The translations under genes and the position numbers were made by a program. 64,000 nucleotides of DNA from a virus, in IMG/VR virus record IMGVR_UViG_3300045988_117852, positions 75,613 through 139,612 of that record; one strand, written 5' to 3'. Under the pieces are notes generated by a model that did not search any database, had not been told where the DNA came from, and was given only the letters and a program-made list of their open reading frames with translations. How positions within the stretch are numbered: position 1 is the stretch's first letter; every line of letters begins with the position of its first letter. This document shows positions 8,267 through 39,973 of the stretch, piece after piece.

Positions 8267-8427
8267 AATGGAAAATATCATTTGATATGAATCATTCTGA
8301 CACACCAGAAATTGACGAACTAGAATTAGAGTGAATACAAATTAATATAGGTAACTAGGACACTTATGGAAAATTCCAGAGTGTCTTTTTTAATACAAAT
8401 TTTTACATAAGAAAGGTGGAATTGATT

Positions 8428-10338: not shown

Positions 10339-11433
10339 ATGAACCTACAGTTAGTAAAAACGGAAAATTTTAACGATTTATCGTGTGATTTTTATAGTTC
10401 TGAGGACGATATTTGGATGACAAGAAATCAAATTGGAGAAGCACTGGAATATGCAGATCCAAGAAAAGCAATTCAAAATATTCACGATAAGAACAAGGCT
10501 CGGTTTATTGGAAAATCAAGTGTCCTCAAAACGAGGACGGTTGATGGAAGGCATAGGGAAACAGTTGTATATAATGAGTTGGGAGTATTTGAAATATGTA
10601 GATTAAGTCGTCAGCCAAAAGCAGATGCCTTTATGGACTGGGCGTGGAATGTTATCAAAGCTTATCGCCATGGAAAATTAAGAACAGGAACTTCTGTAAC
10701 AACAGTAGAACAGTTTCTTACAGAGCAGACAGAACTTATGAAGCAGATGGAAAGAAACAATGAACGCCTGTATAAAGTTACTATCAAGGGATTTAATCAG
10801 CTGGCAGATATTGTTAAAGAAATGAAAGCCGAACGGAAAGAACTGTATAAGCAGATCGGCAAACCTACGAAAGATATTCCAGTCGTAGATACTGAAAGTG
10901 TTATTGCAGAATACAAACTCAATGAATGGAAATCCAATGTCTATTCTATTATTGATGATATTCTAAAAGAATCTGACGAACTAGGAACAACTACTAGAGA
11001 TATTCTTAAAGAAGTATACAGGTATCTCACTAACACATATGGAATTGTGTGGGAGCAGGATCGGAAAGAATACAAGGAGAAATATAATATTAGCGAAAGA
11101 GGTAATGTACCAACGATTGATCTTTGCTATGACAAGTATCCTGATCTGCTAGTCAATTCATTGGAAAAAGTTTTACGGCAGTTTAGAAAAGAAAATGCAC
11201 AGCCTGATTGGGAAGAAATGAAGATCAAGATTACTAATTATGCTAATCATATTGGAAATAAATCTAAAGGTGGAACGTCTGTTTATCGGAAAATTTACAC
11301 TAAGATGACAGAGAATGGAGTTAACTGGGATGAGTATGCTCATGGAGTGCCTAAATCTCAACTTATTAAAACTAATGCAACTTTATACAATAGATTTTAT
11401 GAAGCTGCGGTGGAAATTATTTCAGAAGAATAG
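10339..11433 (+). CDS. Bro-N domain protein (antirepressor-like)
   Basis: The N-terminus has F.S.E...IW.TRNQIGEAL....K.....H..N, typical of the Bro-N/ORF6N DNA-binding domain. Confidence 0.5.
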   Translation: MNLQLVKTENFNDLSCDFYSSEDDIWMTRNQIGEALEYADPRKAIQNIHDKNKARFIGKSSVLKTRTVDGRHRETVVYNELGVFEICRLSRQPKADAFMDWAWNVIKAYRHGKLRTGTSVTTVEQFLTEQTELMKQMERNNERLYKVTIKGFNQLADIVKEMKAERKELYKQIGKPTKDIPVVDTESVIAEYKLNEWKSNVYSIIDDILKESDELGTTTRDILKEVYRYLTNTYGIVWEQDRKEYKEKYNISERGNVPTIDLCYDKYPDLLVNSLEKVLRQFRKENAQPDWEEMKIKITNYANHIGNKSKGGTSVYRKIYTKMTENGVNWDEYAHGVPKSQLIKTNATLYNRFYEAAVEIISEE

Positions 11434-16231: not shown

Positions 16232-17182
16232 ATGGCAGCAACACAGTTTGAAGTTATTGAAACAGTAAACAATAATAACGCAGAAGAATCTGAAACAAAG
16301 ATTAAAAGACGTAAGGATGGAAGTCCTAAATGGACTCGATCTAACAAACAAAAAGGCGTATCATCTTTAGTGTATCCGATCAAGGACAGAAAACAATTTG
16401 CAGCCTTTAATGCATATTTTAGAGACCAGATTGATAAATCGTACACAGAGTACAAACGATATGTAGCTGCCAGAAACAATCTTTTGGTTGCAGTTGGAAA
16501 CAATACAGCATATCGTATCTCTGATATCGTCAGACTCAAATGGGGCGATTTATTAGACGATAAGACTCGTAAGCAGGAAAAGAAAACAAAGAAATTCAGA
16601 ACTGTATACTTTAACGATTTGGTAACTGAAGCAGTGGATATTTTCTTTGAAGCTGTTGCAGGAACTAAATATGATGTCAAGATTGATGGCGAAGTGCCAA
16701 TGGATGATTATGTTTTTGGAACATGTAAGTCTGGATCAGGACACATGACTGAAGCAAATGCTTTGGATTTTGTTAAAAAAGGTGCTAAAGCAGTTGGAAT
16801 TGAGGACAATATTGGTACGCATACATTACGAAAGAACTTTGTGTATTGGACACTTGTCGATCATAAAGATGATCAGAACGTATTGTATACACTTATGAGA
16901 TTATTGAATCATAGTAGCCCTGCAATGACATTTCTGTATGCAACAATCACAGAGGAAGAAACTCATGTATTGTTTGATGATATTGCGCAGACATACAAGG
17001 AAATTATCAGTGGGGCTTTTAACGGATTGAAGGAAAATGTTGTTAATGTGAGTTATGATAGAGTTATGGAGATTATCAAGTTTGCTTATAAGACTGGCAA
17101 AGATGATGCAGATCAAGATGATAGAGTACATGAAGATAATATGCAGGCATTAGAAGAGTTATTGGAAGGAGTAATTGTATGA
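16232..17182 (+). CDS. tyrosine site-specific recombinase (phage integrase family)
   Basis: Catalytic-domain landmarks read in order: RISDIVRLKWGDL (Arg box), THTLRKNF (HxxR), LLNHSSPAMTFLYA (box II with Tyr). Confidence 0.65.
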   Translation: MAATQFEVIETVNNNNAEESETKIKRRKDGSPKWTRSNKQKGVSSLVYPIKDRKQFAAFNAYFRDQIDKSYTEYKRYVAARNNLLVAVGNNTAYRISDIVRLKWGDLLDDKTRKQEKKTKKFRTVYFNDLVTEAVDIFFEAVAGTKYDVKIDGEVPMDDYVFGTCKSGSGHMTEANALDFVKKGAKAVGIEDNIGTHTLRKNFVYWTLVDHKDDQNVLYTLMRLLNHSSPAMTFLYATITEEETHVLFDDIAQTYKEIISGAFNGLKENVVNVSYDRVMEIIKFAYKTGKDDADQDDRVHEDNMQALEELLEGVIV

Positions 17183-21204: not shown

Positions 21205-22029
21205 ATGACAGAAGAAAAGGATATTGTAAATGAAAGATTAAACACATTAGTATTTAGCAATGATGAATTTGGAAATATCCGCACAGCGGTCTTAGATAAT
21301 AATCCGTGGTTTGTTGGCAAAGATGTTGCTGAATGTTTAGAGTACAAAAATACAAAAGACGCTCTTGCAAGACATGTAGATGCCGAAGACAAACAATTAA
21401 TCCTAAGGTCGCAAATCACGACCTTAGAAAATGTACCAAACAGAGGACTCACATTTATTAATGAGTCAGGACTTTATGCATTAATCTTTGGAAGTAAGCT
21501 TGATAAGGCAAAAGAATTCAAGCATTGGGTAACATCAGAAGTTCTTCCGCAGATTCGTAAGACGGGCGGATATATTCCAATTGAAAAAGATGATGATGAT
21601 TTAACTATCATGGCGAAAGCATTGAATATTATGCAAAACACTTTGGAGCAAAAGGATGAACTATTAGCCCAGAAAGAAGAAGTTATCAGTAAACAGAAGC
21701 CACTTGTTGATTTTGCCAATACGGTCAGTGCCACACCAACAATGGTTGATATGAAAACAATGGCAAAGCTTCTTGAGAAAGAAAATCAAGATATTCATAT
21801 GGGCAGAAACAAATTATTTGCGTGGTTAAGAAAAGAAGGGTATCTCATGTCAGATAATACCCCATATGAAAGATATGTTAAGCAGGGCATTTTCAAATTA
21901 ACAGAAAGTGAAGTTGAAACTAAGAATGGAAACAAGTTGATCACCAAAACATATGTGACTGGCAAAGGGCAATTATACTTGGCAAAGAAATTAGCACAAT
22001 ACTTTGCCTCACAGAGTGCATCAGCTTAG
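21205..22029 (+). CDS. phage antirepressor (Bro-N N-terminal domain plus KilA-C/ORF6C C-terminal domain)
   Basis: N-terminus: FSNDEFGNIRTAVLDNNPWFVGKDVAECLEY. C-terminus: KPLVDFANTVSATPTMVDMKTMAKLL….KLFAWLRKEGYL. Both are signature stretches. Confidence 0.75.
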   Translation: MTEEKDIVNERLNTLVFSNDEFGNIRTAVLDNNPWFVGKDVAECLEYKNTKDALARHVDAEDKQLILRSQITTLENVPNRGLTFINESGLYALIFGSKLDKAKEFKHWVTSEVLPQIRKTGGYIPIEKDDDDLTIMAKALNIMQNTLEQKDELLAQKEEVISKQKPLVDFANTVSATPTMVDMKTMAKLLEKENQDIHMGRNKLFAWLRKEGYLMSDNTPYERYVKQGIFKLTESEVETKNGNKLITKTYVTGKGQLYLAKKLAQYFASQSASA

Positions 22030-23406: not shown

Positions 23407-25476
23407 ATGTGCACACCAATGAATGAAAACTGGAGCAATTTTTTAAACAAATTGTCAGAGCGTTTAAATAAAATGCTCGACTATGTAGAGAAAAACAATT
23501 CTACATTGTATGAAACTGATATTGATAAAGATGAACTTTGGGAAGTATATCTGAGCAGTTTTCCTGAAGGAACAAACAAAATGTATCGCAAACGACGAGA
23601 ATATGACTGTGGTCATTGCCGAAACTTTATTAAAACAATCGGTGGAGCTGTGGCAATTGTTGACGGCAAGCTTCATACAATTTGGGAAATTGATACTGAG
23701 GATGCCGTATTTCAGCCAGTAGTTGATGCTTTACGAACATATGTAGAATCAAAGCCGATCAAAGATATTTGGAGACATTTTACAAATACAGTTGGTACAA
23801 AAACCACAAATGAGTATACAGAAGATAAGCAGATTATCAAATGGACTCATATGTATACACCGATTCCAGAGAGATTACTAGAAAGAAAATCCGATATTCC
23901 TACAGCAAAAGCAAAAGTGAGAGATCGAAAGAATGTGTTTAAAAGATCACTTGATGAAATCACAGAAGAAGCTGTTGATACAGTGTTAGAGCTGATCGCT
24001 TCAAATACTCTTTATAGAGGACAGGAGTGGGAAAGAGTCTTAAAGGACTTTAGAAAATATCAGCGAGAATACAATGGTTTATCCGATGAAGAAAAAGATA
24101 CATATACATGGACAAAAGCCATGACCATCGGAGATGTAATTGGTCGTATTAGAAATCATAGCATCGGTACATTACTTGTGAATATCAGCGAAGGCATGGA
24201 CTTAGATAATGCAGTAAAAGCCTATGAAAATGTCGTAGCTCCTGCGAATTACAAACGACCAAAGGCAATCTTTACAAAGAAGATGCTTGAGGATGCAAAG
24301 AAAACTGTAACCGATTTAGGATATATGGATTCATTACAGCGTAGATTTGCAAGACTTGACGATATTACAGTAAACAATATTCTGTTTTGTAATCGTGATG
24401 CAGCACCACGTATTCAAGGTGGCTTAGATATTTTTGATGAAATGAGTAAGGAAGTCGCAGTAAATCCTAAGAAGTTCTCTAAAGTCGAAGAAATCAGTGC
24501 AGAGAAATTCGTATCAGATGTACTTCCAACGGCAAAAGAATTAGAAGTTCTGTTTGAAAATCGTCACAAGAAGAATATGGTTTCACTGATCGCACCTGTA
24601 AATAAAGATGCTAAGAACATGATGAAGTGGAGTAATCCTTTCAGCTGGGCATATTCAGGAAATATGACAGACAGTGAAATGAAAGAAAGAGTTAAGAACG
24701 CAGGTGGTGCAGTTGATGGAGTTTTAAGATTCTCAATTCAGTGGAATGCAAATACAGATTGGAATCAGGACGATTTTGATGCACATTGCAGAACTCCACG
24801 TCATCATATCTATTATGCTTCAATGCATGATTATGCAACTGGTGGAAGCCTTGATGTTGATGTAACTCATCCACATAGAGGAGAGCCTGCCGTAGAAAAT
24901 ATTACATGGGCAGATAAATCCAAAATGGTTGACGGAGAATATGAATTTTTCGTAAGAAATTTTGCTCATAGAAATGGAGTTTCTGGATTTACAGCAGAGA
25001 TTGAATTTGATGGACAGATTTATGAATTTGAATATGATAAGCCTTTACGTCAGAAGGAAGATGTTCCAGTAGCTACAGTTACATTAAAAGATGGTGTGTT
25101 CACAATCAAAGAAAAACTTCCATCAACAACATCTTCAAGAGAAATTTGGGGTATCAATACAAATCAGTTTGTGCCAGTAACAGTAATGTGTTATTCACCT
25201 AACTATTGGGACGAACAGACAGGTATTGGGCATAAACATTATCTGTTCATGTTAAACGGATGTGTGAATGAAGATACTCCAAATGGATTCTTCAATGAGT
25301 TTTTGAAGCAGGAATTAGTACAGCACAAGAGAGTATTCGAGGCTTTAGGAAGTAAGATGCATGTCGCAGATGACCCAAATCAGCTATCAGGAATTGGTTT
25401 CAGTTCTACAAAACGAGATGATGTGATCGTTAAAATCAAGGGTGCAACAGAAAGAGTTTTTAAAATTAAATTTTAA
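23407..25476 (+). CDS. hypothetical large protein (689 aa)
   Basis: Long ORF with AAGGAG RBS; contains a CGHC cysteine pair. Confidence 0.5.
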   Translation: MCTPMNENWSNFLNKLSERLNKMLDYVEKNNSTLYETDIDKDELWEVYLSSFPEGTNKMYRKRREYDCGHCRNFIKTIGGAVAIVDGKLHTIWEIDTEDAVFQPVVDALRTYVESKPIKDIWRHFTNTVGTKTTNEYTEDKQIIKWTHMYTPIPERLLERKSDIPTAKAKVRDRKNVFKRSLDEITEEAVDTVLELIASNTLYRGQEWERVLKDFRKYQREYNGLSDEEKDTYTWTKAMTIGDVIGRIRNHSIGTLLVNISEGMDLDNAVKAYENVVAPANYKRPKAIFTKKMLEDAKKTVTDLGYMDSLQRRFARLDDITVNNILFCNRDAAPRIQGGLDIFDEMSKEVAVNPKKFSKVEEISAEKFVSDVLPTAKELEVLFENRHKKNMVSLIAPVNKDAKNMMKWSNPFSWAYSGNMTDSEMKERVKNAGGAVDGVLRFSIQWNANTDWNQDDFDAHCRTPRHHIYYASMHDYATGGSLDVDVTHPHRGEPAVENITWADKSKMVDGEYEFFVRNFAHRNGVSGFTAEIEFDGQIYEFEYDKPLRQKEDVPVATVTLKDGVFTIKEKLPSTTSSREIWGINTNQFVPVTVMCYSPNYWDEQTGIGHKHYLFMLNGCVNEDTPNGFFNEFLKQELVQHKRVFEALGSKMHVADDPNQLSGIGFSSTKRDDVIVKIKGATERVFKIKF

Positions 25477-26444: not shown

Positions 26445-27035
26445 ATGGACGTTAATAAATTATTGGTTGTCGTCGATATGCAGAATGATTTCATCGACGG
26501 AAGCCTTGGAACCAAAGAAGCACAGGAAATTGTTCCCAAAGTAATTGAGAAAATTAAAAATTTTGATGGCATTATTGTTGCAACAATGGACACACACGAT
26601 GAAAATTATTTATCTACACAGGAAGGAAAGAATCTTCCAGTAAAGCATTGCATCTGCGGAGAAGATGGATGGCGGTTAAATCAAGAGGTAGGAGATGCTT
26701 TATCTAACAATATTTCCGTTGATGATAACAAAGACAAATCTATATTACCAGATGGTATGTACCGTAAAAGCACATTTGGATCATTAGACCTTGCACTTGA
26801 CTGCGAAGATGAATTTGGGATTGGTAATCGACTTCATCCAGAAAATGTGGAAATTACATTAATTGGTTTATGTACAGATATTTGTGTAATCTCCAATGCA
26901 ATGTTATTAAAAGTAGCACTACCAAAAGCAAAGATTATTGTAGATGCTTCCTGCTGTGCAGGAGTGACACCAGAGAGTCATAAGAATGCACTTGAAGCAA
27001 TGAAAATGTGTCAAATTGAAGTAATTAATGAATAA
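26445..27035 (+). CDS. pncA: nicotinamidase / isochorismatase-family cysteine hydrolase (PncA-like)
   Basis: VVVDMQNDF gives the catalytic Asp and LCTDICV the Cys nucleophile; ~196 aa is the usual size. Confidence 0.7.
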   Translation: MDVNKLLVVVDMQNDFIDGSLGTKEAQEIVPKVIEKIKNFDGIIVATMDTHDENYLSTQEGKNLPVKHCICGEDGWRLNQEVGDALSNNISVDDNKDKSILPDGMYRKSTFGSLDLALDCEDEFGIGNRLHPENVEITLIGLCTDICVISNAMLLKVALPKAKIIVDASCCAGVTPESHKNALEAMKMCQIEVINE

Positions 27036-27049
27036 AGGGGTGATAAAGA

Positions 27050-27886
27050 ATGATTAGTATTGGTGGAGTCCCAGTTGTTCCAGAATCTTTTCCAGATGGA
27101 ACGCAAAAAATTGATTTTTCGTTAGGTGCGATATCTCAAGAAATCATAGAAAACAAGACAGCGTATATCACATGGTTATATGAGTCAGATAAAGAGTTGT
27201 TTTCCTTGTTGTGTATTTCTAAAAATATTAAAGAACATTTTCCGTGGTTACAACAAGCATTAGTGATGCCGTATATACCAAATGCAAGATTTGACAGAGT
27301 AAAAGAGCCAAGCGAATGCTTTACATTAAAATATTTTGCAGAAATTATTAATAGTCTTGGATTTGTAAAAGTTATTGTAACTGATCCACATTCCGATGTA
27401 TCTACTGCATTGATTGATCATGTAGAAGTAATCCGTGGAGCATCATATATTACACAAACTTGTAGTAAAGTCCTTAAAGCAGAGTCATCAAGAAATCTTG
27501 TAATTTATTTTCCAGATAGCGGATCACTAAAAAGATATTCTGAATTTGTATCAGATGATTATCCGATTGTCTATGGAATTAAAAATCGTGATTGGAAGAC
27601 AGGAAAAATTCTTGGTATTGAGATTCATGGAGATACAGATAAATTAGATGAGAATACAGCAATTTTAATGATTGATGATATTTGTAGTAAGGGTGGCACA
27701 TTCTACTACGGATCAAAAGAATTAAACAAATACGGTTGTAAAGATATGTATTTGTATGTTACTCACTGTGAAAACACAATTCTTGATGGCGAATTACTAA
27801 AGGAAGATAGTTTGTTTAAAAAAGTGTATACGACACGTAGTATTTTTACCAAAGAGCATGAGAAAGTTGAGGTTATGGAGGGGTAA
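27050..27886 (+). CDS. ribose-phosphate pyrophosphokinase family protein (Prs-like; candidate ADPR-PP synthetase of a phage NAD+ reconstitution pathway)
   Basis: FPDGTQKIDF, MPYIPNARFDR (the Prs PYxxYxRQDR signature) and ILMIDDICSKGGTF (PRPP-binding loop). Confidence 0.65.
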   Translation: MISIGGVPVVPESFPDGTQKIDFSLGAISQEIIENKTAYITWLYESDKELFSLLCISKNIKEHFPWLQQALVMPYIPNARFDRVKEPSECFTLKYFAEIINSLGFVKVIVTDPHSDVSTALIDHVEVIRGASYITQTCSKVLKAESSRNLVIYFPDSGSLKRYSEFVSDDYPIVYGIKNRDWKTGKILGIEIHGDTDKLDENTAILMIDDICSKGGTFYYGSKELNKYGCKDMYLYVTHCENTILDGELLKEDSLFKKVYTTRSIFTKEHEKVEVMEG

Positions 27887-27936
27887 AAATAAGAGACAAA
27901 AGTGATTTAACAGGAAATTATTATGGGAATTGGTTA

Positions 27937-28635
27937 GTGAAAGGATTGTCGAACGAAAAATCCAAAGAAGGAAAGCCTTTATGGATATGTGAATGCCAAT
28001 GTCCTAATAAAACGATCAAACTACATAAACGACATGATTTAACTTCTGGAAAAACAAAATCTTGTGGGTGTATGGCTTCATATTTTAAGAATCAAACTAT
28101 GAAAAAAAATAAAATGAATCGTTATGTTTTTGATGAAGACATGTGTATAATCATTGCCAATAACACTCATAACAAATTTTATATTGATAAAGAAGATTAT
28201 GATTTAATTAAAGATTATATTTGGTATGAAACAGATAGAGGGTATTTGGCTACAACGATTGATCGTAAAACGATATTTCTTCATCGTATGGTTATGCATT
28301 TGTCAATAGATGATGATAGAATTGTCGATCATATTTATCATACCCCAGATGGGAAGAATAGTTTTTACAACAACAGAAAGTCAAATTTAAGAATTACAAC
28401 ACAGGCAAAAAATTGTGCGAATAGAGGACTGAGCAGTAATAATACATCTGGAGTGACAGGAGTATCATGGGATAAAAAATACTGTGTATGGAAGGCTTAT
28501 ATAACTTATAACAAGAAAAGATATTATCTAGGTTCTTATTCAAATATCAATGATGCAATTCAAGCGAGAAGATCAAAGGAAGTTGAATTTTTTGGAGAAT
28601 ATAAATATAAAGAAGCGGAGGAAAAAAATGAGTAA
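27937..28635 (+). CDS. HNH homing endonuclease with AP2-type DNA-binding domain
   Basis: HNH_3-like VDHIYHTPDGKNSFYNNRKSNLRITTQAKN, plus an AP2 module GVSWDKKYCVWKAYITYNKKRYYLGSYSNINDAIQAR. It overlaps the next gene's start by 8 nt. Confidence 0.65.
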   Translation: MKGLSNEKSKEGKPLWICECQCPNKTIKLHKRHDLTSGKTKSCGCMASYFKNQTMKKNKMNRYVFDEDMCIIIANNTHNKFYIDKEDYDLIKDYIWYETDRGYLATTIDRKTIFLHRMVMHLSIDDDRIVDHIYHTPDGKNSFYNNRKSNLRITTQAKNCANRGLSSNNTSGVTGVSWDKKYCVWKAYITYNKKRYYLGSYSNINDAIQARRSKEVEFFGEYKYKEAEEKNE

Positions 28636-30097
28636 TATTTCTTTTATGTTAATGGCAGATACATATAAAAATACAAATCCAGACGCAATGCCTAACGGAT
28701 TATCGAAATTAACTTCATATATCACACCAAGAAAATCAATGTTTAATAACATTAATAAAGTAGTGTTTTTTGGGCTACAAGGATTTATTAAAGAGTTTTT
28801 GATTGATTCAATAAATAATACATTTTTTAATAGAAATAAAGATGAAGTCATAAATGAATATAAAAAATATCTTGATACTCAGATTGGAGCCCAAAGTTAT
28901 AATATCAATAGAATTGAGCAACTATATGATTTAGGATATTTACCAATTGAAATGAAAGCATTACCAGAAGGTTCTCTTGTACCGATGGGGGTTCCGTGTA
29001 TTGAGTTAGTAAATACACACCCTAAGTTTGCATGGGTTGTACAATGGATTGAATGCATGACACAGTCAGAGCTGTATGGAACATGTAATTGGGCTACTAT
29101 GGCTCATGAATATCGAAAACTGGCAAATACCTTTTATGACAAAACTACCGATAATTCTGATCCATCAATGGCTATGGCGGATTTTGGGTTTAGAGGGCTT
29201 GGTGTAAATAATGGGATTAGAGCCAGTAGCTCATGGTTATTGTCTTTTAACAAAACGTCTACGATTCCAGCAATGCAGTATGTTGATAAAATGTATGATG
29301 CAAATTGCGAAAAGAATCATATTGGTATCGGAGCAGTAAGTCTTGAACATGCAACAGTGTGTTGTAATTTGGCAGTTTGTGAAACTGAAGAGAATTTACT
29401 TAGAAGGCTTCTGACAACGGTTTATAAAGATACTTCATTTAGTTATGTGTCAGATAGTTTTGACTATTGGAATCTTATTGATAATATATTACCTAAACTT
29501 AAAAAAGAAATTTTGGAGCATAACGGCAAATTTTTTGTGCGACCTGATAGCGGAGATATAGTAGAAATTTCTGTGCAAACTGTACAAAAACTTTATAAAA
29601 TTTTTGGGGGAAAAATAAATAAAAAAGGATATAAAGAGCTTAATCATAAAATTGGATTAATTTATGGTGATGGTTGCCAGTATGAGAAGATTAAAGAAAT
29701 TTGGACGCAGCTTGAACACCTTGGGTTTGCAGCGAATACAATTTTGTTTGGTGTTGGGGCATTTTCATTCACTGCAATGTCTACAGAAAAAGACGGACTC
29801 GTATGTCTAACGAGAGACACTTTCGGGTTTGCAATGAAGAGCACTGATTGTGTAATAAATGGTAAAGAATATATGATTCAAAAAGATCCTAAGACGGACA
29901 AAACAAAATTAAAAAAGTCACATAAAGGTTTATGCTATATAACCAATGATGATGGTAATTTTGTATGTCATGATGGATATACTTCAGAAAATCTTCCATT
30001 GAATAATCTGCTTGAGACGGTATTTAGAGATGGCAAATTGGTAAAAGAACAGTCATTACAGGAAATTAGAAGAGTTTTAAACGAAGGAGAATTTTAA
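28628..30097 (+). CDS. nicotinamide/nicotinate phosphoribosyltransferase family protein (NAMPT/NadV-like; candidate Namat)
   Basis: LMADTYK at the N-terminus, DFGFRG and IYGDGCQYEKI motifs; ~489 aa, typical for NAMPT. Confidence 0.7.
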   Translation: MSNISFMLMADTYKNTNPDAMPNGLSKLTSYITPRKSMFNNINKVVFFGLQGFIKEFLIDSINNTFFNRNKDEVINEYKKYLDTQIGAQSYNINRIEQLYDLGYLPIEMKALPEGSLVPMGVPCIELVNTHPKFAWVVQWIECMTQSELYGTCNWATMAHEYRKLANTFYDKTTDNSDPSMAMADFGFRGLGVNNGIRASSSWLLSFNKTSTIPAMQYVDKMYDANCEKNHIGIGAVSLEHATVCCNLAVCETEENLLRRLLTTVYKDTSFSYVSDSFDYWNLIDNILPKLKKEILEHNGKFFVRPDSGDIVEISVQTVQKLYKIFGGKINKKGYKELNHKIGLIYGDGCQYEKIKEIWTQLEHLGFAANTILFGVGAFSFTAMSTEKDGLVCLTRDTFGFAMKSTDCVINGKEYMIQKDPKTDKTKLKKSHKGLCYITNDDGNFVCHDGYTSENLPLNNLLETVFRDGKLVKEQSLQEIRRVLNEGEF

Positions 30098-30114
30098 GAG
30101 AGGAGATATAAAAC

Positions 30115-30885
30115 ATGAGTTTTAATGCAGCAGAAACCAAAGACAGATTAGTACAGTGGATTAGAGATTGGTTTAAAGTTAATGGAAGATGGTGTAATGC
30201 CGTTGTAGGAATTTCAGGCGGTAAAGATTCATCAGTTGTCGCTGCCTTATGTGTCGAAGCACTAGGTAAAGATCGAGTTATTGGAATTATGATGCCACAG
30301 GGTGTGCAGAGTGATATTGAGTATTCTCAGATGCTATGTGATCATCTAGGAATTGAACATTACACAGTTAATATTTTTAATGCTTGCAGAGATATTAAAC
30401 ATGAAATCAGAGATGAATTAGGCGGTAAATGGAGTAAACAGAGTGCCACAAATTTACCTGCTCGTATCCGAATGGCTACATTGTATGCTTTTGCACAGAG
30501 TATGAATGGAAGAGTAGCAAATACATGTAATTTATCTGAAGATTGGGTCGGATATGCAACAAGATATGGAGATTCAGCCGGAGATTTTAGTCCATTAAGT
30601 GATCTGACTGTGACAGAAGTTAAAGCAATTGGTAGAGTTCTGGGACTTCCAACAGAGTTAATCGAAAAAACACCTACTGATGGATTATGCGGTAAGACAG
30701 ATGAAGATAATCTTGGATTTACATATGATATGTTAGACGAATATCTGAGAACTGGAGTATGTAAAGATGAAGCAGTGAGACAGATCATTGACGAGATGCA
30801 TGAGAAGAATGTATTTAAACTTGCTCCAATGCCTAAATTTATATCTGGCATGTGGATCGAGGCAGGAATGGAGTTGGATGATTAA
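30115..30885 (+). CDS. nadE: NH3-dependent NAD+ synthetase
   Basis: ISGGKDSSVVAAL PP-loop (SGGxDS); 256 aa, typical NadE size. Confidence 0.7.
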   Translation: MSFNAAETKDRLVQWIRDWFKVNGRWCNAVVGISGGKDSSVVAALCVEALGKDRVIGIMMPQGVQSDIEYSQMLCDHLGIEHYTVNIFNACRDIKHEIRDELGGKWSKQSATNLPARIRMATLYAFAQSMNGRVANTCNLSEDWVGYATRYGDSAGDFSPLSDLTVTEVKAIGRVLGLPTELIEKTPTDGLCGKTDEDNLGFTYDMLDEYLRTGVCKDEAVRQIIDEMHEKNVFKLAPMPKFISGMWIEAGMELDD

Positions 30886-31285: not shown

Positions 31286-32746
31286 ATGATTGAAGTAATT
31301 GGAACAGTGGTACCAGTGGTTATTGCGGTAGGTGGCGTAGGAGCTATTATCGGTAGCGGTTATGTCAAAGCAAGTCCAGATAAAGCTTATATTATTTCTG
31401 GACTTAGAAAGACACCTAAGACATTAATTGGTAAGGCAGGGTTAAAAATCCCATTCTTTGAAAAAGCAGATCATCTTAATCTTGAGTTAATTCCAATTGA
31501 TGTTAAGACATCAAGTTCTGTGCCTACAGCAGATTATATCAATATCAATGTAGATGCAGCGGTCAATGTAAAGGTTAGCAGTAATCCAGAAAGATTAAAA
31601 CTTGCAGCAGAAAACTTCTTAAATAAGCCAGTAGGCGATATTGGACAGGTCGCAAGAGAAGTCCTTGAAGGTAATATGCGAGAGATCGTTGGAAAGATGA
31701 GCCTCGAAGAAATGGTTTCTGATCGTCAGAAATTTGCACAGCTTGTTACAGAAAATGCGAAGCCAGACCTTGCTGCAATGGGATTAGATATCATCAGTTT
31801 TAATGTGCAGAATTTTATGGATGATAATGATGTTATTGAAAATCTTGGTGTAGATAATGTTGTTAAAATTCAGAAGAAGGCTGCAATTTCCAGAGCTGAA
31901 AGCGAAAGAGATATTGAAAAAGCAAAAGCAATGGCTGAAAAAGAAGCGAATGATGCAAGGGTTGAGTCAGAAACAGCGATCGCAGAAAAGAATAACAATC
32001 TGGAAATTAAAAAATCTGAACTTGAGAAGATTTCAAAAGCAAAGAAGGCTGAGGCAGATGCAGCATACAAGATTCAGGAAGAAAAATCACGTAAAGAAAT
32101 TGAAATTGTAACTGCGGATGCTAATATTATGCGTCAGGAAAAAGAAATTGAACTGAAACGTAAAGACGTTGAGGTAACAGAGCAGACATTAGATGCACAG
32201 ATCAAGAAACAGGCAGAGGCTGAAAGATATGCCTCTCAGCAGAAAGCAGATGCAGATTTATATAAGAGACAGAAAGAGTCTGAAGCTAACAAATATGCCA
32301 AAGAAAAAGAAGCTGAATCTACAAAATATGCTATGGAGCAGGAAGCTGAAGGTATTCGTGCAAAGGGTGTAGCAGAAGCCGAGGCAATCAAAGCTAAAGG
32401 TATTGCTGAAGCAGAAGCAATTGAAAAGAAAGCAGAAGCTATGAAACAGATGGGTAAAGCATCTATTGTAGAAATGATGTGTCAGATGTTCCCAGAAGCA
32501 GTTAAAAATGCAGCCGCACCATTAGGAAATGTAGGAAGTATCACTATGTATGGAGAAGGAAACACAACAAAATTAACAAAAGATATTATGAATGTTGTGA
32601 ATCAGGTATCAGATGGTGTTAAAGGATCTACAGGTGTTGATCTTGCAAAGATGCTAAAAGATTTTGTTTCTGAAGATAAAGAAGTAGAATCTACAGATAA
32701 TGAAAATCTTGGAACACCAGAGCCAGCAGATTACCGTGAGTTCTAA
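31286..32746 (+). CDS. flotillin / SPFH (band-7) domain membrane protein
   Basis: N-terminal TM helix, SPFH core (YVKASPDKAYIISG…) and long Ala/Glu-rich flotillin repeats (AEAEAIKAKGIAEAEAIEKKAEA). Confidence 0.7.
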   Translation: MIEVIGTVVPVVIAVGGVGAIIGSGYVKASPDKAYIISGLRKTPKTLIGKAGLKIPFFEKADHLNLELIPIDVKTSSSVPTADYININVDAAVNVKVSSNPERLKLAAENFLNKPVGDIGQVAREVLEGNMREIVGKMSLEEMVSDRQKFAQLVTENAKPDLAAMGLDIISFNVQNFMDDNDVIENLGVDNVVKIQKKAAISRAESERDIEKAKAMAEKEANDARVESETAIAEKNNNLEIKKSELEKISKAKKAEADAAYKIQEEKSRKEIEIVTADANIMRQEKEIELKRKDVEVTEQTLDAQIKKQAEAERYASQQKADADLYKRQKESEANKYAKEKEAESTKYAMEQEAEGIRAKGVAEAEAIKAKGIAEAEAIEKKAEAMKQMGKASIVEMMCQMFPEAVKNAAAPLGNVGSITMYGEGNTTKLTKDIMNVVNQVSDGVKGSTGVDLAKMLKDFVSEDKEVESTDNENLGTPEPADYREF

Positions 32747-32760
32747 TAGGAGAAATTATT

Positions 32761-33495
32761 ATGACAATTATTATTATTTGTGTAATTGTAGCGATTATCG
32801 CATATTTACAATTTACTAAAAATGGAAAGCAGATTAAAAATGTGGCATCTGGAACAGTTACAGAAAAAATCAAAGAAAATGCAATGACTCCAGAGGGAGC
32901 AAGAGCCAGATATAATACTGCAATTAAAGATAAGCAGGATTTCTACCAGAAAACAATGGGTACATACACAATGGTAGCTGGTCGATTGGCAACAATGGAA
33001 GATAACCTCAAAGAAACAAAAGAAGAAATTTCTAAAACCGAGGCAATGATCAACCAGTATATTGATAACAATGATGATAAAAAAGCAATGTATTATGCTC
33101 AAAAATTAGCCACGCTCAAGGCACAGAAATCAGTGTACGAAAAGAAAATCCCAGAGTTGCAATCCACAAAAGATAAACAAGAAGAAATTAAAAACCAAGC
33201 GTATGATCAGCTCATTAAGCTAAAAAGCGAAAAAGATACTGTGGTTCTTCAGATGGAGGCAGATCAGCAGATTGCAGAATTGCAGAAAAATTTAGATCAA
33301 TACAATAGTTCAAATGCTGCTCAGGAAGGTTTGGAAGAGGTTCGAGAAGGAGCAAAGAAACTTAGCGAACAAGCCAAAGGCGTTGCTATTGCGTATGAAT
33401 CTAGTGCAGAAACATTGGATTATCATATGGAGCAAGAAGAGCGACAGCAAGAAGCTAAAGCCATATTAGATCAGATGAAAAATGCTCGCAAATAA
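32761..33495 (+). CDS. PspA/IM30-like coiled-coil protein with an N-terminal TM helix, tentative
   Basis: TM start (IIIICVIVAIIAYL), then a PspA-like heptad-rich helical region (ARYNTAIKDKQDF….MEDNLKETKEE). Confidence 0.35.
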   Translation: MTIIIICVIVAIIAYLQFTKNGKQIKNVASGTVTEKIKENAMTPEGARARYNTAIKDKQDFYQKTMGTYTMVAGRLATMEDNLKETKEEISKTEAMINQYIDNNDDKKAMYYAQKLATLKAQKSVYEKKIPELQSTKDKQEEIKNQAYDQLIKLKSEKDTVVLQMEADQQIAELQKNLDQYNSSNAAQEGLEEVREGAKKLSEQAKGVAIAYESSAETLDYHMEQEERQQEAKAILDQMKNARK

Positions 33496-38365: not shown

Positions 38366-39973
38366 ATGACAGCTAAAGATAACACAATGGTAATTACTAG
38401 AAAAATCGCTTTGATTCCTGTCGCAAGTGAGCGAAAAGAATGGAAGAAAAGAATCAATTCTTTCTTAGAAAAAGATTTTCCAAGGAAAATTGAAGCAAAG
38501 AAGAAGCAGATCAAGAATACAAGCAAACCAGAAAAGAAAGACGGGTATAAACAGCAGCTCACAGAATTAGAAAAGCAATATGAAGATTTCAAAGAAAATA
38601 GAATCGAAGAATATACTCAGAAAATGGTTAACGATTATACATATGGTCTTGTGAGAGATGCAATGGAGAGCGAAGCAAGACGAAAGAACTACATTTTGTC
38701 TTACATATACACAAAAATGGTACAGGATGGAGTTGGATATATGCCAACATTGAAAGATAAATATACATGGATTAAAGAAAATATTAATGTTGCATATAGA
38801 CGAAAAGGAAGTAATAAAGGAAGCATCTTTGATGATGTTGACATTGACAATCCATTAGGTGGATACGGAACATGTTTCTCTCAGATATTAACAAGCAAGA
38901 TCAAAGATTTGGTTAAACAGGGATTGTTAGACGGCAAAGTGTCAATTCCGAATTTTAAAATTGACTCACCGTTTACAATTGCAAAAGCGTATTTTGATCT
39001 ATATCACGAATATGAAGATATAACAGAATTAAAGAAAAATATTCAAAATTCTGATTGTAAATTGTATTGTGGATTAGGTAACAAAGGTATTCCGACCATT
39101 GCAAATTTCAAAGTAAATATTGGACACAAAGGAAATAGAGATGAGTTGATTTCTACATTGTTAAGAATATTTACTGGAGAATACGAGATTTGTGGAAGTA
39201 CAATGCAGATTTCTAAAACAAAAATTATTTTAAATTTATCAATTAGAATTCCTAAAACACAACTTGAATTAGATGAGGACACTGTAGTTGGTGTCGATCT
39301 TGGAGTTGCAATTCCAGCGGTATGTTCTTTGAATAATAACAAATATAAGAGAGAGTATATTGGTAGTAGTGACGATTTTATTAGAATGAGAACGAAATTA
39401 CAGCATGAGAAACAGCAGTTACAGAAAGCGTTAAAAATGTCAAAAGGCGGACATGGAAGAAAAAGAAAGTTGTTGGCATTAGAAAGATGTAAAAAGAAAG
39501 AATATAACTTTGTTGAAACATACTGTCACAAAGTAAGCAAGAAAGTGGTTGATTTTGCGGTCAAGAATAAAGCGAAATATATCAATGTAGAAAATCTTTC
39601 GGGATATGATTCAAGTAAATTCATTTTAAGAAATTGGAGTTTTTATAAACTTCAGCAATACATAGAATATAAAGCTGCAAAATATGGCATTGAAGTTAGA
39701 AAAGTAAATCCTTCATTTACATCTCAAGTGTGTAGTTTCTGCGGACATTGGGAAGACGGGCAGAGAAAAGATCAAGCAACATTTGTTTGTGGTAATCCTG
39801 ATTGTGAAAGTCATAAGTTGCATATGGTAAATGCAGACTACAATGCATCAAGAAATATTGCGATGTCAACATTATTTACAAGTGATAAATTTCAATTTTG
39901 TAAAAAGACAATGCAAGATGCGGCTGAGTATTACGGTATTCAATTAGATAATGAAGATCAATTAGCAGCGTAA
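38366..39973 (+). CDS. TnpB/Cas12-like RNA-guided-nuclease-family protein (RuvC split domain plus zinc finger), 535 aa
   Basis: RuvC-I VGVDLGV, RuvC-II …YINVENL…, OrfB Zn-ribbon CSFCGH…CGNPDC, RuvC-III NADYNASRNIA. The N-terminus MVITRKIALIP resembles the TnpB start. There is no upstream left-end/TnpA. Confidence 0.7.
   Translation: MTAKDNTMVITRKIALIPVASERKEWKKRINSFLEKDFPRKIEAKKKQIKNTSKPEKKDGYKQQLTELEKQYEDFKENRIEEYTQKMVNDYTYGLVRDAMESEARRKNYILSYIYTKMVQDGVGYMPTLKDKYTWIKENINVAYRRKGSNKGSIFDDVDIDNPLGGYGTCFSQILTSKIKDLVKQGLLDGKVSIPNFKIDSPFTIAKAYFDLYHEYEDITELKKNIQNSDCKLYCGLGNKGIPTIANFKVNIGHKGNRDELISTLLRIFTGEYEICGSTMQISKTKIILNLSIRIPKTQLELDEDTVVGVDLGVAIPAVCSLNNNKYKREYIGSSDDFIRMRTKLQHEKQQLQKALKMSKGGHGRKRKLLALERCKKKEYNFVETYCHKVSKKVVDFAVKNKAKYINVENLSGYDSSKFILRNWSFYKLQQYIEYKAAKYGIEVRKVNPSFTSQVCSFCGHWEDGQRKDQATFVCGNPDCESHKLHMVNADYNASRNIAMSTLFTSDKFQFCKKTMQDAAEYYGIQLDNEDQLAA

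What the first reader, a model, noticed from the sequence alone, without database searches (positions are those of the whole stretch)
26445..30885. NAD+ metabolism island: nicotinamidase, Prs-like enzyme, NAMPT-like enzyme and NadE
Four consecutive genes encode a PncA-like nicotinamidase, a Prs-family phosphoribosyl pyrophosphokinase (PYxxxxRFDR and PRPP-loop motifs), a NAMPT/NadV-family phosphoribosyltransferase (DFGFRG) and an NH3-dependent NAD synthetase (SGGKDS). The adjacent Prs-like and NAMPT-like pair matches the gene content of the recently described phage NAD+ reconstitution pathway 1. In that pathway an ADPR-pyrophosphate synthetase (annotated as Prs) and a nicotinamide-ADPR transferase (annotated as NAMPT) rebuild NAD+ from ADPR and nicotinamide. 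This counters NAD+-depleting defences such as Thoeris, DSR/SIR2 and some CBASS effectors. PncA and NadE add a Preiss-Handler branch, so the phage may carry two routes to NAD+.
Basis: partly seen in the sequence, partly recalled or inferred. Interest (0 to 1): 0.75.

Follow-up and report, generated by a model that had tools for sequence, protein, structure and literature searches.

The report
Phage NAD-rebuilding operon rewired for nicotinate
This gut phage carries a four-enzyme operon that most likely rebuilds NAD+ from the two fragments left by bacterial NAD-destroying defences, but through nicotinic acid and deamido-NAD rather than through nicotinamide as in the known NARP1 pathway, a route not described in the literature I could search.

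Summary
The four genes are real and at the stated coordinates. They are not strictly consecutive: an HNH-AP2 homing endonuclease ORF (27937-28635) lies between the Prs-like and NAMPT-like genes.

The Prs-like protein belongs to the Adps clade, not to Prs. The NAMPT-like protein is closest to the solved SPbetaL1 Namat. The NARP1 call is therefore right at family level.

The 'two routes' reading is probably wrong. The Namat-like protein has lost the nicotinamide-binding Asp (SPbetaL1 D215, human D219), which is Ser211 here. Four more pyridine-pocket residues are also changed, while ribose-phosphate and most AMP contacts are kept.

Across three samples of related loci, every canonical-pocket homologue lacks PncA and NadE nearby (0 of 94). 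About 90% of remodelled-pocket homologues have PncA, Adps and NadE alongside, in several gene orders, in phages, a Clostridium plasmid and gut Clostridia chromosomes. In the chromosomes an ADPR-sensing NrtR regulator is often adjacent.

Best explanation (about 0.6):
- PncA: Nam to NA.
- Adps: ADPR to ADPR-PP.
- Namat variant: NA + ADPR-PP to NaAD.
- NadE: NaAD to NAD+.

Main rival: NA + PRPP to NaMN, with host NadD completing the step. No biochemistry was possible.

The parts
26445..27035 (+). PncA-like nicotinamidase (196 aa), isochorismatase fold. Proposed step 1: nicotinamide to nicotinic acid.
   Evidence: Pfam PF00857 2.7e-17. The best solved relatives are all nicotinamidases: P. horikoshii PncA 1ilw 8.9e-13, also A. 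baumannii, yeast Pnc1 and M. tuberculosis PncA. The catalytic triad D11/K98/C143 and the metal ligands D49/H51/H68 align with 1ilw. Homologues lie beside remodelled-pocket Namat genes in most loci and beside none of 94 canonical ones.
27050..27886 (+). Adps-like ADPR pyrophosphokinase (278 aa; Prs superfamily, Adps clade). Proposed step 2: ADPR + ATP to ADPR-PP.
   Evidence: phrog_619 1.5e-67. It is 34-35% identical to the validated SPbetaL1 and FADO Adps. It sits in a clade with validated Adps that excludes Prs in 100/100 bootstraps. TIGR01251 gives 86.5 bits, below the cut-off of 113, as for validated Adps. K178 equals the catalytic K162. The Adps-specific motifs KNRDWKTGKI and DDICSKGGT are present. 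None of 25 conserved canonical-Adps positions is changed in module-type Adps.
27937..28635 (+). Free-standing HNH-AP2 homing endonuclease ORF (232 aa, GTG start) inserted between adps and namat. It is a mobile passenger, not part of the pathway.
   Evidence: phrog_99 7.6e-38 and a weak AP2 hit. It is present at this position only in the window and its nearest IMG/VR relative. Homologues occur at four different positions around the module in 12 of 80 related phage loci. Its stop codon TAA at 28635 overlaps the namat start.
28628..30097 (+). Namat-family transferase with a remodelled pyridine pocket (489 aa). Proposed step 3: nicotinic acid + ADPR-PP to NaAD (deamido-NAD).
   Evidence: The closest solved structure is SPbetaL1 Namat (9w5x, 2.6e-100). 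Catalytic His241, R189 and the ribose-phosphate and AMP-phosphate contacts are conserved. Pocket residues are changed: A184, K209, S211, G235 and S238, in place of SPbetaL1 H187, G213, D215, S239 and A242 (human H191, G217, D219, S241, A244).
29252..29260 (+). Codons K209-T210-S211: the 'KTS' that replaces the 'GTD' of the nicotinamide-binding G-T-D-T motif.
   Evidence: The alignment is unambiguous (LLSF-NKTST-IPA against LLSF-TGTDT-IPA). D215 hydrogen-bonds nicotinamide in the Namat crystal structure (PMC12774641). Human D219S switches substrate affinity, and NaPRTases carry Ser here (PMC4919578, PMC4442680, PMC10907753).
29750..29818 (+). Selectivity-clamp helix (SCH) region G375-D397: GVGAFSFTA-[MSTEKDGLVC]-LTRD. 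The 10-aa insertion occupies 29777-29806.
   Evidence: The canonical Namat motif is G-S-X-phi-X-phi-X-phi-T-R-D with aromatic X (PMC12774641). In the window the aromatic at motif position 3 (F379, equal to F392) and at position 5 are kept. Position 7 (equal to Y396) is Ala, followed by an insertion shared by the whole S-type/A-type clade.
30115..30885 (+). NH3-dependent NAD+ synthetase NadE (256 aa, single domain). Proposed step 4: NaAD + ATP + NH3 to NAD+.
   Evidence: PF02540 3.5e-57 and TIGR00552 190 bits against a cut-off of 63.65. The best solved relatives are NH3-dependent NAD synthetases: 2e18 5e-37 and 3fiu 1.5e-30. The P-loop SGGKDS lies at residue 34. Natural Namat(remodelled)-NadE fusion proteins exist in 8 clusters, down to 45% identity.

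Best explanation

Proposed steps:
1. PncA deamidates nicotinamide to nicotinic acid.
2. Adps pyrophosphorylates ADP-ribose to ADPR-PP, as in NARP1.
3. The Namat-family enzyme has a base pocket converted from nicotinamide-type to nicotinate-type. It joins nicotinic acid to ADPR-PP and gives nicotinic acid adenine dinucleotide (NaAD) directly.
4. NadE amidates NaAD to NAD+.

The inputs are exactly the products of SIR2/TIR/SEFIR NADase effectors (ADPR and nicotinamide), plus ATP and ammonia. No host NaMN adenylyltransferase is needed.

Shown here: family and clade membership of all four proteins, intact catalytic residues, the pocket remodelling, and the strict gene co-occurrence.

Inferred, not shown: the substrate of the transferase (nicotinate; ADPR-PP rather than PRPP), the NaAD product, and the anti-defence role.
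For: 1. Adps identity.
- The clade with validated Adps excludes Prs in 100/100 bootstraps.
- The NCBIfam score pattern matches validated Adps.
- Adps-specific motifs and the catalytic Lys are present.
- 0 of 25 conserved Adps positions differ between canonical and module-type Adps.
- Module-type Adps are not monophyletic. L026 groups with SPbetaL1/FADO. Adps therefore seem interchangeable between the two operon types.

2. Namat family, but a changed base pocket.
- Five positions are invariant in 63 non-redundant canonical Namats and in three Nampt/NadV references: H187, G213, D215, S239 and A242. All five are changed in every module lineage, including the C. botulinum plasmid and Phass-1.
- D215 and A242 are direct nicotinamide contacts in the crystal structure.
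- The human equivalents H191, G217, D219 and A244 are known sites for substrate switching or inhibitor binding.
- NaPRTases carry Ser at the Asp position.
- Ribose, phosphate and AMP contacts are conserved: R192, R306, D308, G360, D361, G390, T398, R399, D400 and F392.

3. Co-occurrence.
- Sample 1: 86 loci with Asp/Glu, none with PncA or NadE. 104 loci with Ser/Ala, 84 with PncA + Adps + NadE. About 11 of the 20 incomplete loci are cut by a contig end; about 9 lack a partner despite adequate flanks.
- Sample 2: 77 of 80 IMG/VR loci are complete.
- Sample 3: 64 of 69 remodelled loci are complete. 0 of 8 canonical loci have PncA or NadE.
- At least four gene orders occur.

4. Operon logic.
- C. 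acetobutylicum has nrtR-pncA-pncB-nadD-nadE (PMC2330246).
- In 43 of the 80 genome-derived loci an nrtR-like gene lies directly next to the module, either upstream of pncA or downstream of nadE. The common form is nrtR-pncA-adps-namat-nadE. Adps + Namat thus occupy the slot of PncB + NadD, whose joint job is NA to NaAD.
- NrtR's proposed effector is ADPR.

5. ADPR-centred accessories.
- Macro-domain genes, the domain family of the NARP1-associated phosphatase Adpp, and NADAR genes sit inside many module operons. These include the window's closest relatives.

6. No PncB homologue occurs in any locus. NadR-like genes occur in only 3 module loci. Neither is in the window.

7. Natural Namat(remodelled)-NadE fusions occur in 8 clusters, down to 45% identity.
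Against: - No enzymology was possible. Every substrate assignment is an inference.
- The adenine clamp is only partly kept in the window's S-type. The SCL Arg40 position is Met38, with Phe39 next to it. The Tyr396 position is Ala, followed by a 10-aa insertion. Binding of the ADP moiety is therefore not assured.
- Namat enzymes retain PRPP activity in vitro.
- H. ducreyi NadV nests within the Namat side of the tree, so donor specificity can drift.
- In the two Namat-NadE fusion loci examined, no Adps is recognisable within 6 kb.
- The second-best solved relative of the NadE is Francisella NadE (3fiu). From my own knowledge, not checked here, that enzyme prefers NaMN.
- The remodelled types may trace to one ancient event: a Fitch count gives 1 change on 149 representatives. 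The co-occurrence is therefore not many independent trials.
- About 9 remodelled loci with adequate flanks lack PncA, Adps or NadE nearby.
- It is not obvious why a phage would spend an extra ATP on the deamidated route.
Confidence: 0.6

Rival explanations
1. Preiss-Handler salvage with a NadV-derived nicotinate phosphoribosyltransferase. PncA makes nicotinic acid. The Prs-like protein supplies PRPP, or is dispensable. The remodelled transferase makes NaMN from nicotinate and PRPP. Host NadD makes NaAD, and phage NadE finishes. Alternatively a Francisella-type NadE amidates NaMN to NMN.
For: - This is the textbook pathway context for PncA and NadE. NrtR regulates pncA-pncB-nadD-nadE operons.
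- Namat keeps PRPP activity in vitro.
- The adenine clamp is degenerate in the window type.
- The fusion-lineage loci lack a recognisable Adps within 6 kb.
- The NadE is similar to the Francisella enzyme 3fiu.
Against: - The Prs-like protein sits inside the Adps clade. Its purified SPbetaL1 member gave no product with the ribose-5-phosphate/ATP reaction but made ADPR-PP from ADPR (Fig. 2D legend and text).
- It shows no drift at conserved Adps positions.
- Adps is retained beside the transferase in about 95% of remodelled loci.
- Macro and NADAR ADPR-processing genes sit in the operon.
- The AMP-phosphate contacts and F392 are conserved.
- Phages that use a mononucleotide route (NARP2) carry their own Nmnat in 94% of cases. 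None is seen here.
Confidence: 0.22
2. The pair is canonical NARP1 and joins nicotinamide to ADPR-PP. PncA and NadE form an independent second branch that feeds the host Preiss-Handler pathway.
For: - Family-level membership of both core proteins in Adps/Namat.
- The catalytic core of the transferase is intact.
- A Ser/Ala pocket might still admit nicotinamide.
Against: - The nicotinamide-binding Asp and four further pocket residues are replaced. For human NAMPT, a review tabulates D219A as loss of activity and D219S as a substrate switch.
- A co-expressed nicotinamidase would destroy the substrate of a nicotinamide-using Namat.
- PncA and NadE never accompany canonical-pocket Namats (0 of 94) and almost always accompany remodelled ones. 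Two independent branches would not predict this.
- No PncB or NadD is present.
Confidence: 0.1
3. A general auxiliary metabolic module that boosts NAD+ for phage replication, for example for NAD-dependent ligase or ribonucleotide metabolism. It would have been inherited from gut Clostridia and would have no specific anti-defence role.
For: - The same operon, with an NrtR regulator, is chromosomal in many gut Clostridia. It is therefore a housekeeping ADPR/nicotinamide recycling pathway in bacteria.
- NAD synthesis gene clusters are common in large gut phages (PMC11662467).
Against: - This concerns the purpose, not the chemistry, and is compatible with the best explanation.
- Validated NARP1, NARP1-AP and RyDEP-linked operons all act against NAD-depleting defences.
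- Macro-domain genes of the Adpp family accompany the module in close relatives.
Confidence: 0.08

Closest known systems
NARP1 (Adps + Namat; Osterman et al., bioRxiv 10.1101/2024.02.11.579819; Namat structures 9w5w/9w5x, PMC12774641)
   Same: - Adjacent adps-namat pair.
- Adps-clade pyrophosphokinase with the catalytic Lys.
- Namat-clade transferase with the same catalytic core and the same ribose-phosphate and AMP-phosphate contacts.
- Phage-borne.
- Uses the NADase product ADPR (inferred).
   Different: - The nicotinamide pocket is remodelled at five positions (Asp to Ser211, and others).
- The clamp motif carries a 10-aa insertion and lacks the Tyr396 and Arg40 equivalents.
- The pair is always accompanied by PncA and NadE.
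- The predicted product is NaAD, not NAD+, so two extra enzymes are needed.
Extended NARP1 operons: NARP1-AP (with the Macro phosphatase Adpp; bioRxiv 10.64898/2026.01.28.702374) and RyDEP-linked NARP1 (bioRxiv 10.64898/2026.05.28.727677)
   Same: - The principle of adding accessory enzymes to the two-gene core inside one operon.
- Macro-domain genes lie between namat and nadE in the window's closest relatives.
   Different: - Those accessories feed ADPR into an unchanged nicotinamide-using core. Here the accessories act on the pyridine side (PncA before, NadE after), and the core transferase itself is altered.
- The window phage has no Macro gene.
Preiss-Handler salvage operon of Clostridia, nrtR-pncA-pncB-nadD-nadE (PMC2330246)
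   Same: - The same first and last enzymes (PncA, NadE).
- The same NrtR regulator in the bacterial copies.
- The same overall conversion: nicotinamide to nicotinic acid to NaAD to NAD+.
   Different: - PncB and NadD are replaced by Adps and a Namat-family transferase.
- The ADP-ribosyl part would come from recycled ADPR rather than from PRPP plus ATP.
NARP2 (Nampt + Nmnat, KVP40) and NARP3 (PnuC + NadR; PMC13464706)
   Same: Phage NAD+ restoration against NAD-depleting defences. The NARP2 Nampt is a homologue of the transferase.
   Different: - No Nmnat, NadR or PnuC in the window.
- The transferase is on the Namat side of the tree, not the KVP40 Nampt side.
- The chemistry is different.

Membership tests
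NARP1: Adps | Falls in the Adps clade, separate from bona fide Prs | tested here: met
   NJ tree of 80 sequences. The window groups with SPbetaL1, FADO and a Bas63-like Adps. E. coli, B. subtilis, Listeria, Rhodococcus and Nostoc Prs are excluded in 100/100 bootstraps. TIGR01251 gives 86.5 bits against 96-106 for validated Adps and 423 for E. coli Prs.
NARP1: Adps | Catalytic Lys (SPbetaL1 K162) and a Namat homologue within 10 genes | tested here: met
   K178 aligns with K162. The Namat homologue starts 742 nt downstream, separated only by the HNH ORF.
NARP1: Adps | Makes ADPR-PP from ADPR + ATP and not PRPP from ribose-5-phosphate | not testable with these tools
   This needs an enzyme assay. 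Indirect support: no conserved Adps position is changed in module-type Adps.
NARP1: Namat | Closer to Adps-associated Namat than to Nampt (KVP40, human, Xcc) | tested here: met
   SPbetaL1 Namat 9w5x 2.6e-100 against human NAMPT about 1e-43 and Xcc about 1e-36. It lies on the Namat side of the tree rooted with KVP40-like and T4-like Nampt.
NARP1: Namat | Nicotinamide-binding residues F189, R192, D215, A242, R306, D13', Y15' | tested here: not met
   F, R, R, D13 and Y15 are kept. D215 is Ser211 and A242 is Ser238. The neighbouring H187, G213 and S239 are Ala184, Lys209 and Gly235.
NARP1: Namat | SCH clamp motif G-S-X-phi-X-phi-X-phi-T-R-D, with aromatic X at positions 3 and 7 | tested here: not met
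   The window has G-A-F-S-F-T-A + MSTEKDGLVC + L-T-R-D. The aromatic at position 3 (F379) is kept. Position 7 is Ala, and a 10-aa insertion follows.
NARP1: Namat | SCL loop supplies a stacking residue: Arg at the third position, or the fourth residue when the third is Lys/Tyr | tested here: inconclusive
   The window loop is K36-S37-M38-F39. Met is at the Arg40 position, and the next residue is Phe, which could stack. A-type relatives keep Arg.
Housekeeping Prs (ribose-phosphate diphosphokinase) | Passes curated Prs family thresholds and carries the Prs ribose-5-phosphate loop DDxIDTxGT | tested here: not met
   All NCBIfam Prs models score far below their cut-offs. There is no Pfam Prs hit at E<=0.01. 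The loop is DDICSKGGT, as in Adps.
NARP2 (Nampt + Nmnat) | KVP40-type Nampt with the GTDT Asp, and an Nmnat in the same phage | tested here: not met
   The Asp is replaced. No NadD/NadR-type adenylyltransferase is found in the 64-kb window. The rest of the phage genome was not available.
Nicotinamidase (PncA) | Asp-Lys-Cys catalytic triad and Asp/His/His metal site | tested here: met
   D11, K98 and C143, and D49, H51 and H68, align with P. horikoshii PncA 1ilw. Activity was not tested.
NH3-dependent NAD+ synthetase (NadE) | Single-domain NAD_synthase above the curated threshold, with the SGGxDS P-loop and no glutaminase domain | tested here: met
   TIGR00552 gives 190.3 bits against a cut-off of 63.65. 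The protein is 256 aa. SGGKDS lies at residue 34. The preference for NaAD over NaMN was not testable.
Classical Preiss-Handler pathway | PncB and NadD present alongside PncA and NadE | tested here: not met
   No PncB homologue occurs in the window or in any of the roughly 330 loci. NadR-like genes occur in 3 module loci only.

The most novel reading that the evidence does not exclude
The window carries an undescribed fourth NAD+ reconstitution route, a 'deamido-NARP1'. Its core step would be a new enzymatic reaction: nicotinate + ADPR-PP to NaAD. That step bypasses NaMN and the essential enzyme NadD. The module is a conserved pncA-adps-namat*-nadE operon. It is abundant in large gut phages, present on a Clostridium botulinum plasmid, and chromosomal, often next to an NrtR-family regulator gene, in gut Clostridia and neighbouring taxa.
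Probability: 0.55. Interest if true: 0.85.

Novelty: new variant of a known kind. Interest (0 to 1): 0.74.

Why it matters
If correct, this adds a new branch to the phage-bacterium conflict over NAD+, and a new reaction to NAD biochemistry: direct synthesis of deamido-NAD from recycled ADP-ribose and nicotinic acid.

- It would explain why hundreds of large gut phages and many gut Clostridia keep PncA and NadE welded to an Adps/Namat pair.
- It would give a function to NrtR-linked adps-namat operons. Their regulator is proposed to sense ADPR, the pathway's own substrate.
- It would reveal a route to NaAD that does not pass through NadD.
- It gives a simple five-residue sequence signature that separates nicotinamide-type from putative nicotinate-type Namats. 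Annotation tools that now call all of them 'NARP1' or 'nicotinate phosphoribosyltransferase' could use it.
- The deamidated route dominates NAD flux in the gut. A phage-borne version there is therefore also relevant to microbiome NAD metabolism.

Tried and rejected
- Megablast of the cluster against 50,697 phage records found nothing. All comparisons had to be made at protein level.
- The window has no tRNAs. Promoter-like sites are no more frequent than in shuffles, and there is no + strand terminator inside the cluster. Co-transcription is thus plausible but not demonstrated.
- A profile of Namat/Nampt against E. coli PncB gave no usable alignment. Only motif-level correspondence could be used: MDFGTRRR and FVGTSN against hDFxxRG and GTDT.
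- Structure prediction was considered and dropped. The tool returns no coordinates or ligands, and the clamp is formed across a dimer. It could not settle the substrate question.
- I tested whether the remodelled pocket arose many times. A Fitch count on 149 representatives allows a single origin. Only Phass-1 is clearly separate in the smaller tree. I therefore do not claim convergent evolution.
- I looked for an Adps next to the Namat-NadE fusion genes using HMMs, PHROGs and hhalign. None was found within 6 kb.
- The NCBIfam name 'nicotinate phosphoribosyltransferase' for NF006629 (407.6 bits against a cut-off of 405) was not used as evidence. RefSeq applies the same product name to H. ducreyi NadV and to the Namat homologues of Bacillus plasmids.
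- NARP3 was checked and is unrelated. It is PnuC + NadR.

Full report
**What is in the sequence**

The + strand of 26445-30885 carries five ORFs, not four.

- A 196-aa isochorismatase-fold protein, 26445-27035.
- A 278-aa Prs-superfamily protein, 27050-27886.
- A 232-aa HNH-AP2 homing endonuclease ORF, 27937-28635.
- A NAMPT-family protein.
- A 256-aa NAD synthetase, 30115-30885.

Family assignments are secure. Pfam gives Isochorismatase 2.7e-17, NAPRTase 3.7e-23 with NAMPT_N 1.2e-9, and NAD_synthase 3.5e-57. PHROGs gives 1.5e-67 (ribose-phosphate pyrophosphokinase family), 7.6e-38 (HNH endonuclease), 2.6e-149 and 6e-71.

The NAMPT-like gene most likely starts at ATG 28628. A GGAGG lies upstream, and relatives share the N-terminus. 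Its start overlaps the stop codon of the HNH ORF. There is no + strand terminator inside the cluster.

The window is phage DNA. It encodes a DNA polymerase, a RecJ-like exonuclease, a DnaB-like helicase, Bro-N/ANT proteins and homing endonucleases, nearly all on one strand. Its nearest relative is a 165.7-kb IMG/VR contig. That contig is near-identical for the transferase but only 91-97% identical for the neighbouring genes.

**Is the pair NARP1?**

At family level, yes.

For the Prs-like protein:
- It is 34-35% identical to the Adps proteins of SPbetaL1 (purified and assayed) and FADO (NARP1 operon deletion) (papers read).
- In an NJ tree it sits in a clade with these and a Bas63-like Adps. 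Five bona fide Prs are excluded in 100/100 bootstraps.
- On NCBIfam TIGR01251 it scores 86.5 bits (cut-off 113). Validated Adps score 96-106; E. coli Prs scores 423.
- It keeps the catalytic Lys (K178, equal to K162).
- It carries Adps-specific motifs that Prs lacks: K-x-R-[ND]-[WF]-x-T-G-[KE]-I and DD-x-[CS]-S-x-GGT.

For the transferase:
- It hits the solved SPbetaL1 Namat at 2.6e-100, against about 1e-43 for human NAMPT.
- It lies on the Namat side of a tree rooted with KVP40-like and T4-like Nampt.

**What does not fit canonical NARP1**

The Namat crystal-structure paper lists the nicotinamide contacts as F189, R192, D215, A242, R306, D13' and Y15'. It defines the adenine clamp as the SCH motif G-S-X-phi-X-phi-X-phi-T-R-D plus a stacking residue in the SCL loop.

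In the window protein the G-T-D-T motif reads K-T-S-T. I compared 63 non-redundant canonical Namats with 13 'S-type' and 24 'A-type' relatives. Five positions are invariant in the canonical set and in three Nampt/NadV references. All five are changed in every variant lineage, including the distant C. botulinum plasmid and Phass-1 proteins.

| SPbetaL1 position | Canonical residue | Variant lineages | Window residue | Human NAMPT equivalent |
|---|---|---|---|---|
| 187 | His | Ala/Ser/Gly | Ala184 | H191 |
| 213 | Gly | Lys/Asn/Arg/Ser | Lys209 | G217 |
| 215 | Asp | Ser/Ala | Ser211 | D219 |
| 239 | Ser | Gly | Gly235 | S241 |
| 242 | Ala | Ser | Ser238 | A244 |

These positions line the nicotinamide/FK866 site.
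- D219 binds the amide of nicotinamide.
- NaPRTases have Ser at that position.
- A review tabulates D219S as switching substrate affinity, D219A as inactivating, and H191R/G217R/A244M as blocking inhibitor binding.
- E. coli PncB carries F-V-G-T-S-N where Nampt has G-T-D-T (motif-level correspondence only).

By contrast, the ribose, phosphate and AMP-phosphate contacts and the first clamp aromatic (F392) are conserved. The clamp is altered further downstream. The Tyr396 position is Ala (S-type) or Cys (A-type), followed by a 9-10-residue insertion. Arg40 is kept in the A-type but is Met-Phe in the window's S-type.

**Gene partnership**

I collected loci with 8-kb flanks in three samples. I searched all ORFs with HMMs built from seed sequences.

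- Sample 1: 190 loci from reference phages, plasmids, IMG/VR and GTDB genomes.
  - The 86 homologues with Asp/Glu at position 215 never have PncA or NadE nearby. 76 of them have Adps.
  - Of 104 with Ser/Ala, 84 have PncA, Adps and NadE together.
  - Of the other 20, about 11 are cut by a contig end. About 9 lack a partner despite adequate flanks.
- Sample 2: 80 IMG/VR loci. All are S-type, and 77 are complete.
- Sample 3: 77 IMG/VR loci, a mixed set.
  - 64 of 69 remodelled loci are complete.
  - 0 of 8 canonical loci have PncA or NadE.

Gene order varies.
- PncA-Adps-Namat-NadE is the commonest.
- Adps-PncA-Namat-NadE occurs on a 210-kb C. botulinum plasmid.
- Adps-x-Namat-Macro-NadE-PncA occurs in a human faecal phage contig.
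- PncA-Adps-Namat-x-NadE occurs in Phass-1.

Among the best 150 cluster representatives in 1.84 billion proteins, about 52 carry the remodelled pocket. The variant is therefore a large subfamily.

One caution applies. A parsimony count allows a single origin of the remodelled state. The association may be one old event preserved through deep divergence, not many independent trials.

**Operon logic**

In 43 of the 80 genome-derived loci an NrtR-like gene (Nudix domain plus winged helix) lies directly next to the module and is co-directional with it. It sits upstream of pncA in most cases and downstream of nadE in others. None of the phage loci and none of the canonical loci has one.

NrtR is a repressor of NAD genes, and its proposed effector is ADPR. 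The paper that defined it lists the C. acetobutylicum operon nrtR-pncA-pncB-nadD-nadE. The common bacterial form of the module is nrtR-pncA-adps-namat-nadE. Adps and the transferase thus stand exactly where PncB and NadD stand, and the joint task of PncB and NadD is nicotinic acid to NaAD.

Further observations point the same way.
- No PncB homologue occurs in any locus or in the window. NadR-like genes occur in three module loci only.
- Macro-domain genes, the domain family of the NARP1-associated ADPR-1''-phosphate phosphatase Adpp, lie between the transferase and NadE in the window's closest relatives and in many other module loci. NADAR genes also occur.
- None of 25 conserved Adps positions differs between canonical and module-type Adps.
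- Module-type Adps are scattered in the Adps tree. The pyrophosphokinase step seems unchanged and interchangeable. Only the base pocket of the transferase changed.
- Natural fusions of a remodelled-pocket transferase to NadE exist in eight protein clusters, down to 45% identity.

**Best explanation**

The cluster is a single deamidated NARP1-type pathway.
1. PncA converts nicotinamide to nicotinic acid.
2. Adps converts ADPR to ADPR-PP.
3. The variant transferase joins nicotinic acid to ADPR-PP to give NaAD.
4. NadE converts NaAD to NAD+.

Every encoded enzyme then has a necessary place. The inputs are the two products of NADase effectors. No host adenylyltransferase is needed. I put this at about 0.6.

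**Rivals**

- The main rival (about 0.22) is a Preiss-Handler route. The transferase would make NaMN from PRPP, and host NadD or a Francisella-type NadE would complete the path.
  - In its favour: the partly degraded adenine clamp of the window type; the known residual PRPP activity of Namat; the placement of H. ducreyi NadV within the Namat side of the tree; and the absence of a recognisable Adps within 6 kb of the two fusion genes examined.
The Asp is lost, a nicotinamidase would compete with a nicotinamide-using Namat, and PncA/NadE partner exclusively with the remodelled type.
- Whether the phage copy serves anti-defence or general NAD supply is a separate question that I could not test. 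Precedent from NARP1, NARP1-AP and RyDEP favours anti-defence.

**Novelty**

In the searchable library no paper contains both 'NARP1' and 'nicotinamidase'. The only paper with 'NARP1' and 'nicotinic acid' describes NARP3, which is PnuC + NadR. The NARP1 preprint does not mention PncA, NadE or deamidation. The aRES preprint reports additional genes in NARP1 operons but, in the section I read, names only the Macro phosphatase.

I therefore rate this as a new variant of a known kind. That rests on absence from one text library. Subscription-only versions of these papers were not searchable.

**The HNH ORF**

It is present between adps and namat only in the window and its nearest relative. Homologues sit at four different positions around the module in other phages. 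One distant representative protein begins with about 300 residues resembling this HNH-AP2 endonuclease, directly ahead of its Namat-like part (judged by eye, and it may be a merged gene call). This is typical homing-endonuclease behaviour and is irrelevant to the pathway.

Noticed in passing
window 27937-28635: An HNH-AP2 homing endonuclease ORF (GTG start) is inserted between adps and namat. Its stop codon overlaps the namat start. Homologues occupy four different positions around the module in 12 of 80 related phage loci. One distant representative (P0135) has an N-terminal region of about 300 residues resembling this endonuclease directly ahead of its Namat-like part, judged by eye.
   Followed up: partly
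P0159 and other long representatives; two-piece tblastn hits in Bacillus, Listeria and Felixounavirus phages: Many Namat/Nampt homologues are 800-1100 aa. P0159 has an insertion of several hundred residues exactly inside the SCH clamp motif (GVGSFC...HNTYQMNTRD), which looks like an intein. The Felixounavirus protein (L030) has a roughly 100-aa insertion elsewhere.
   Followed up: no
window 38366-39973: A 535-aa TnpB-like protein (Pfam OrfB_IS605 4.6e-8 and Cas12f1-like TNB domain 2.4e-19) encoded in the phage. This is a possible RNA-guided nuclease or IS605-family element. No search for an associated guide RNA was made.
   Followed up: no
window 31286-32746 and 32761-33495: An SPFH/Band-7 plus flotillin-domain protein (486 aa; Band_7 7.8e-24) lies about 400 bp downstream of NadE, after a 110-aa ORF. 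It is followed by a 244-aa protein with no Pfam hit that looks coiled-coil by eye. This is unusual cargo for a phage, and its function here is unknown.
   Followed up: no
window 23407-25476: A 689-aa protein of unknown function (phrog_1735, 6.3e-265; no Pfam hit) lies upstream of the module. An ORF of similar size (687 aa) lies in the same upstream position in related phages (L008 2623-4686). Whether it is functionally linked to the module or merely syntenic was not examined.
   Followed up: no
L031-L110 (GTDB genome contigs), e.g. L061 5872-6621, L052 6012-6683: An NrtR-like regulator gene (Nudix + winged helix, with a conserved AANFRRK motif) is directly adjacent to the pncA-adps-namat-nadE operon in 43 genome-derived loci. 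The MAGs involved are labelled Treponema, Saccharibacteria, Elusimicrobia, Alistipes and even Methanomassiliicoccaceae. Some of these labels may reflect mis-binned phage or mobile DNA.
   Followed up: partly
L357 6001-8619 and L358 5696-8269: Natural Namat(remodelled pocket)-NadE fusion genes lie on phage-like contigs. L357 is from a 208-kb contig that also encodes GroES/GroEL and Bro-N/ANT. A 175-aa phosphoesterase (phrog_547) or unknown ORFs of 319 and 342 aa sit immediately upstream. No recognisable Adps lies within 6 kb.
   Followed up: partly
L002 (Phage Phass-1, OQ749652) 8974-9897: The gene annotated 'hypothetical protein' downstream of the Phass-1 nicotinamidase-prs-nampt genes is a NadE homologue, 45% identical to the window NadE by tblastn. 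This recoded (code 15) phage therefore carries the complete four-gene module.
   Followed up: partly
window 16232-17182; 8416-9780; 10339-11433; 21205-22029: A tyrosine recombinase (Phage_integrase 1.1e-13), two Bro-N proteins (one also with an ANT/KilAC domain) and a further anti-repressor-like protein (PHROGs Ant) occur in what otherwise looks like a large virulent-type genome region. The window has no tRNA genes.
   Followed up: no
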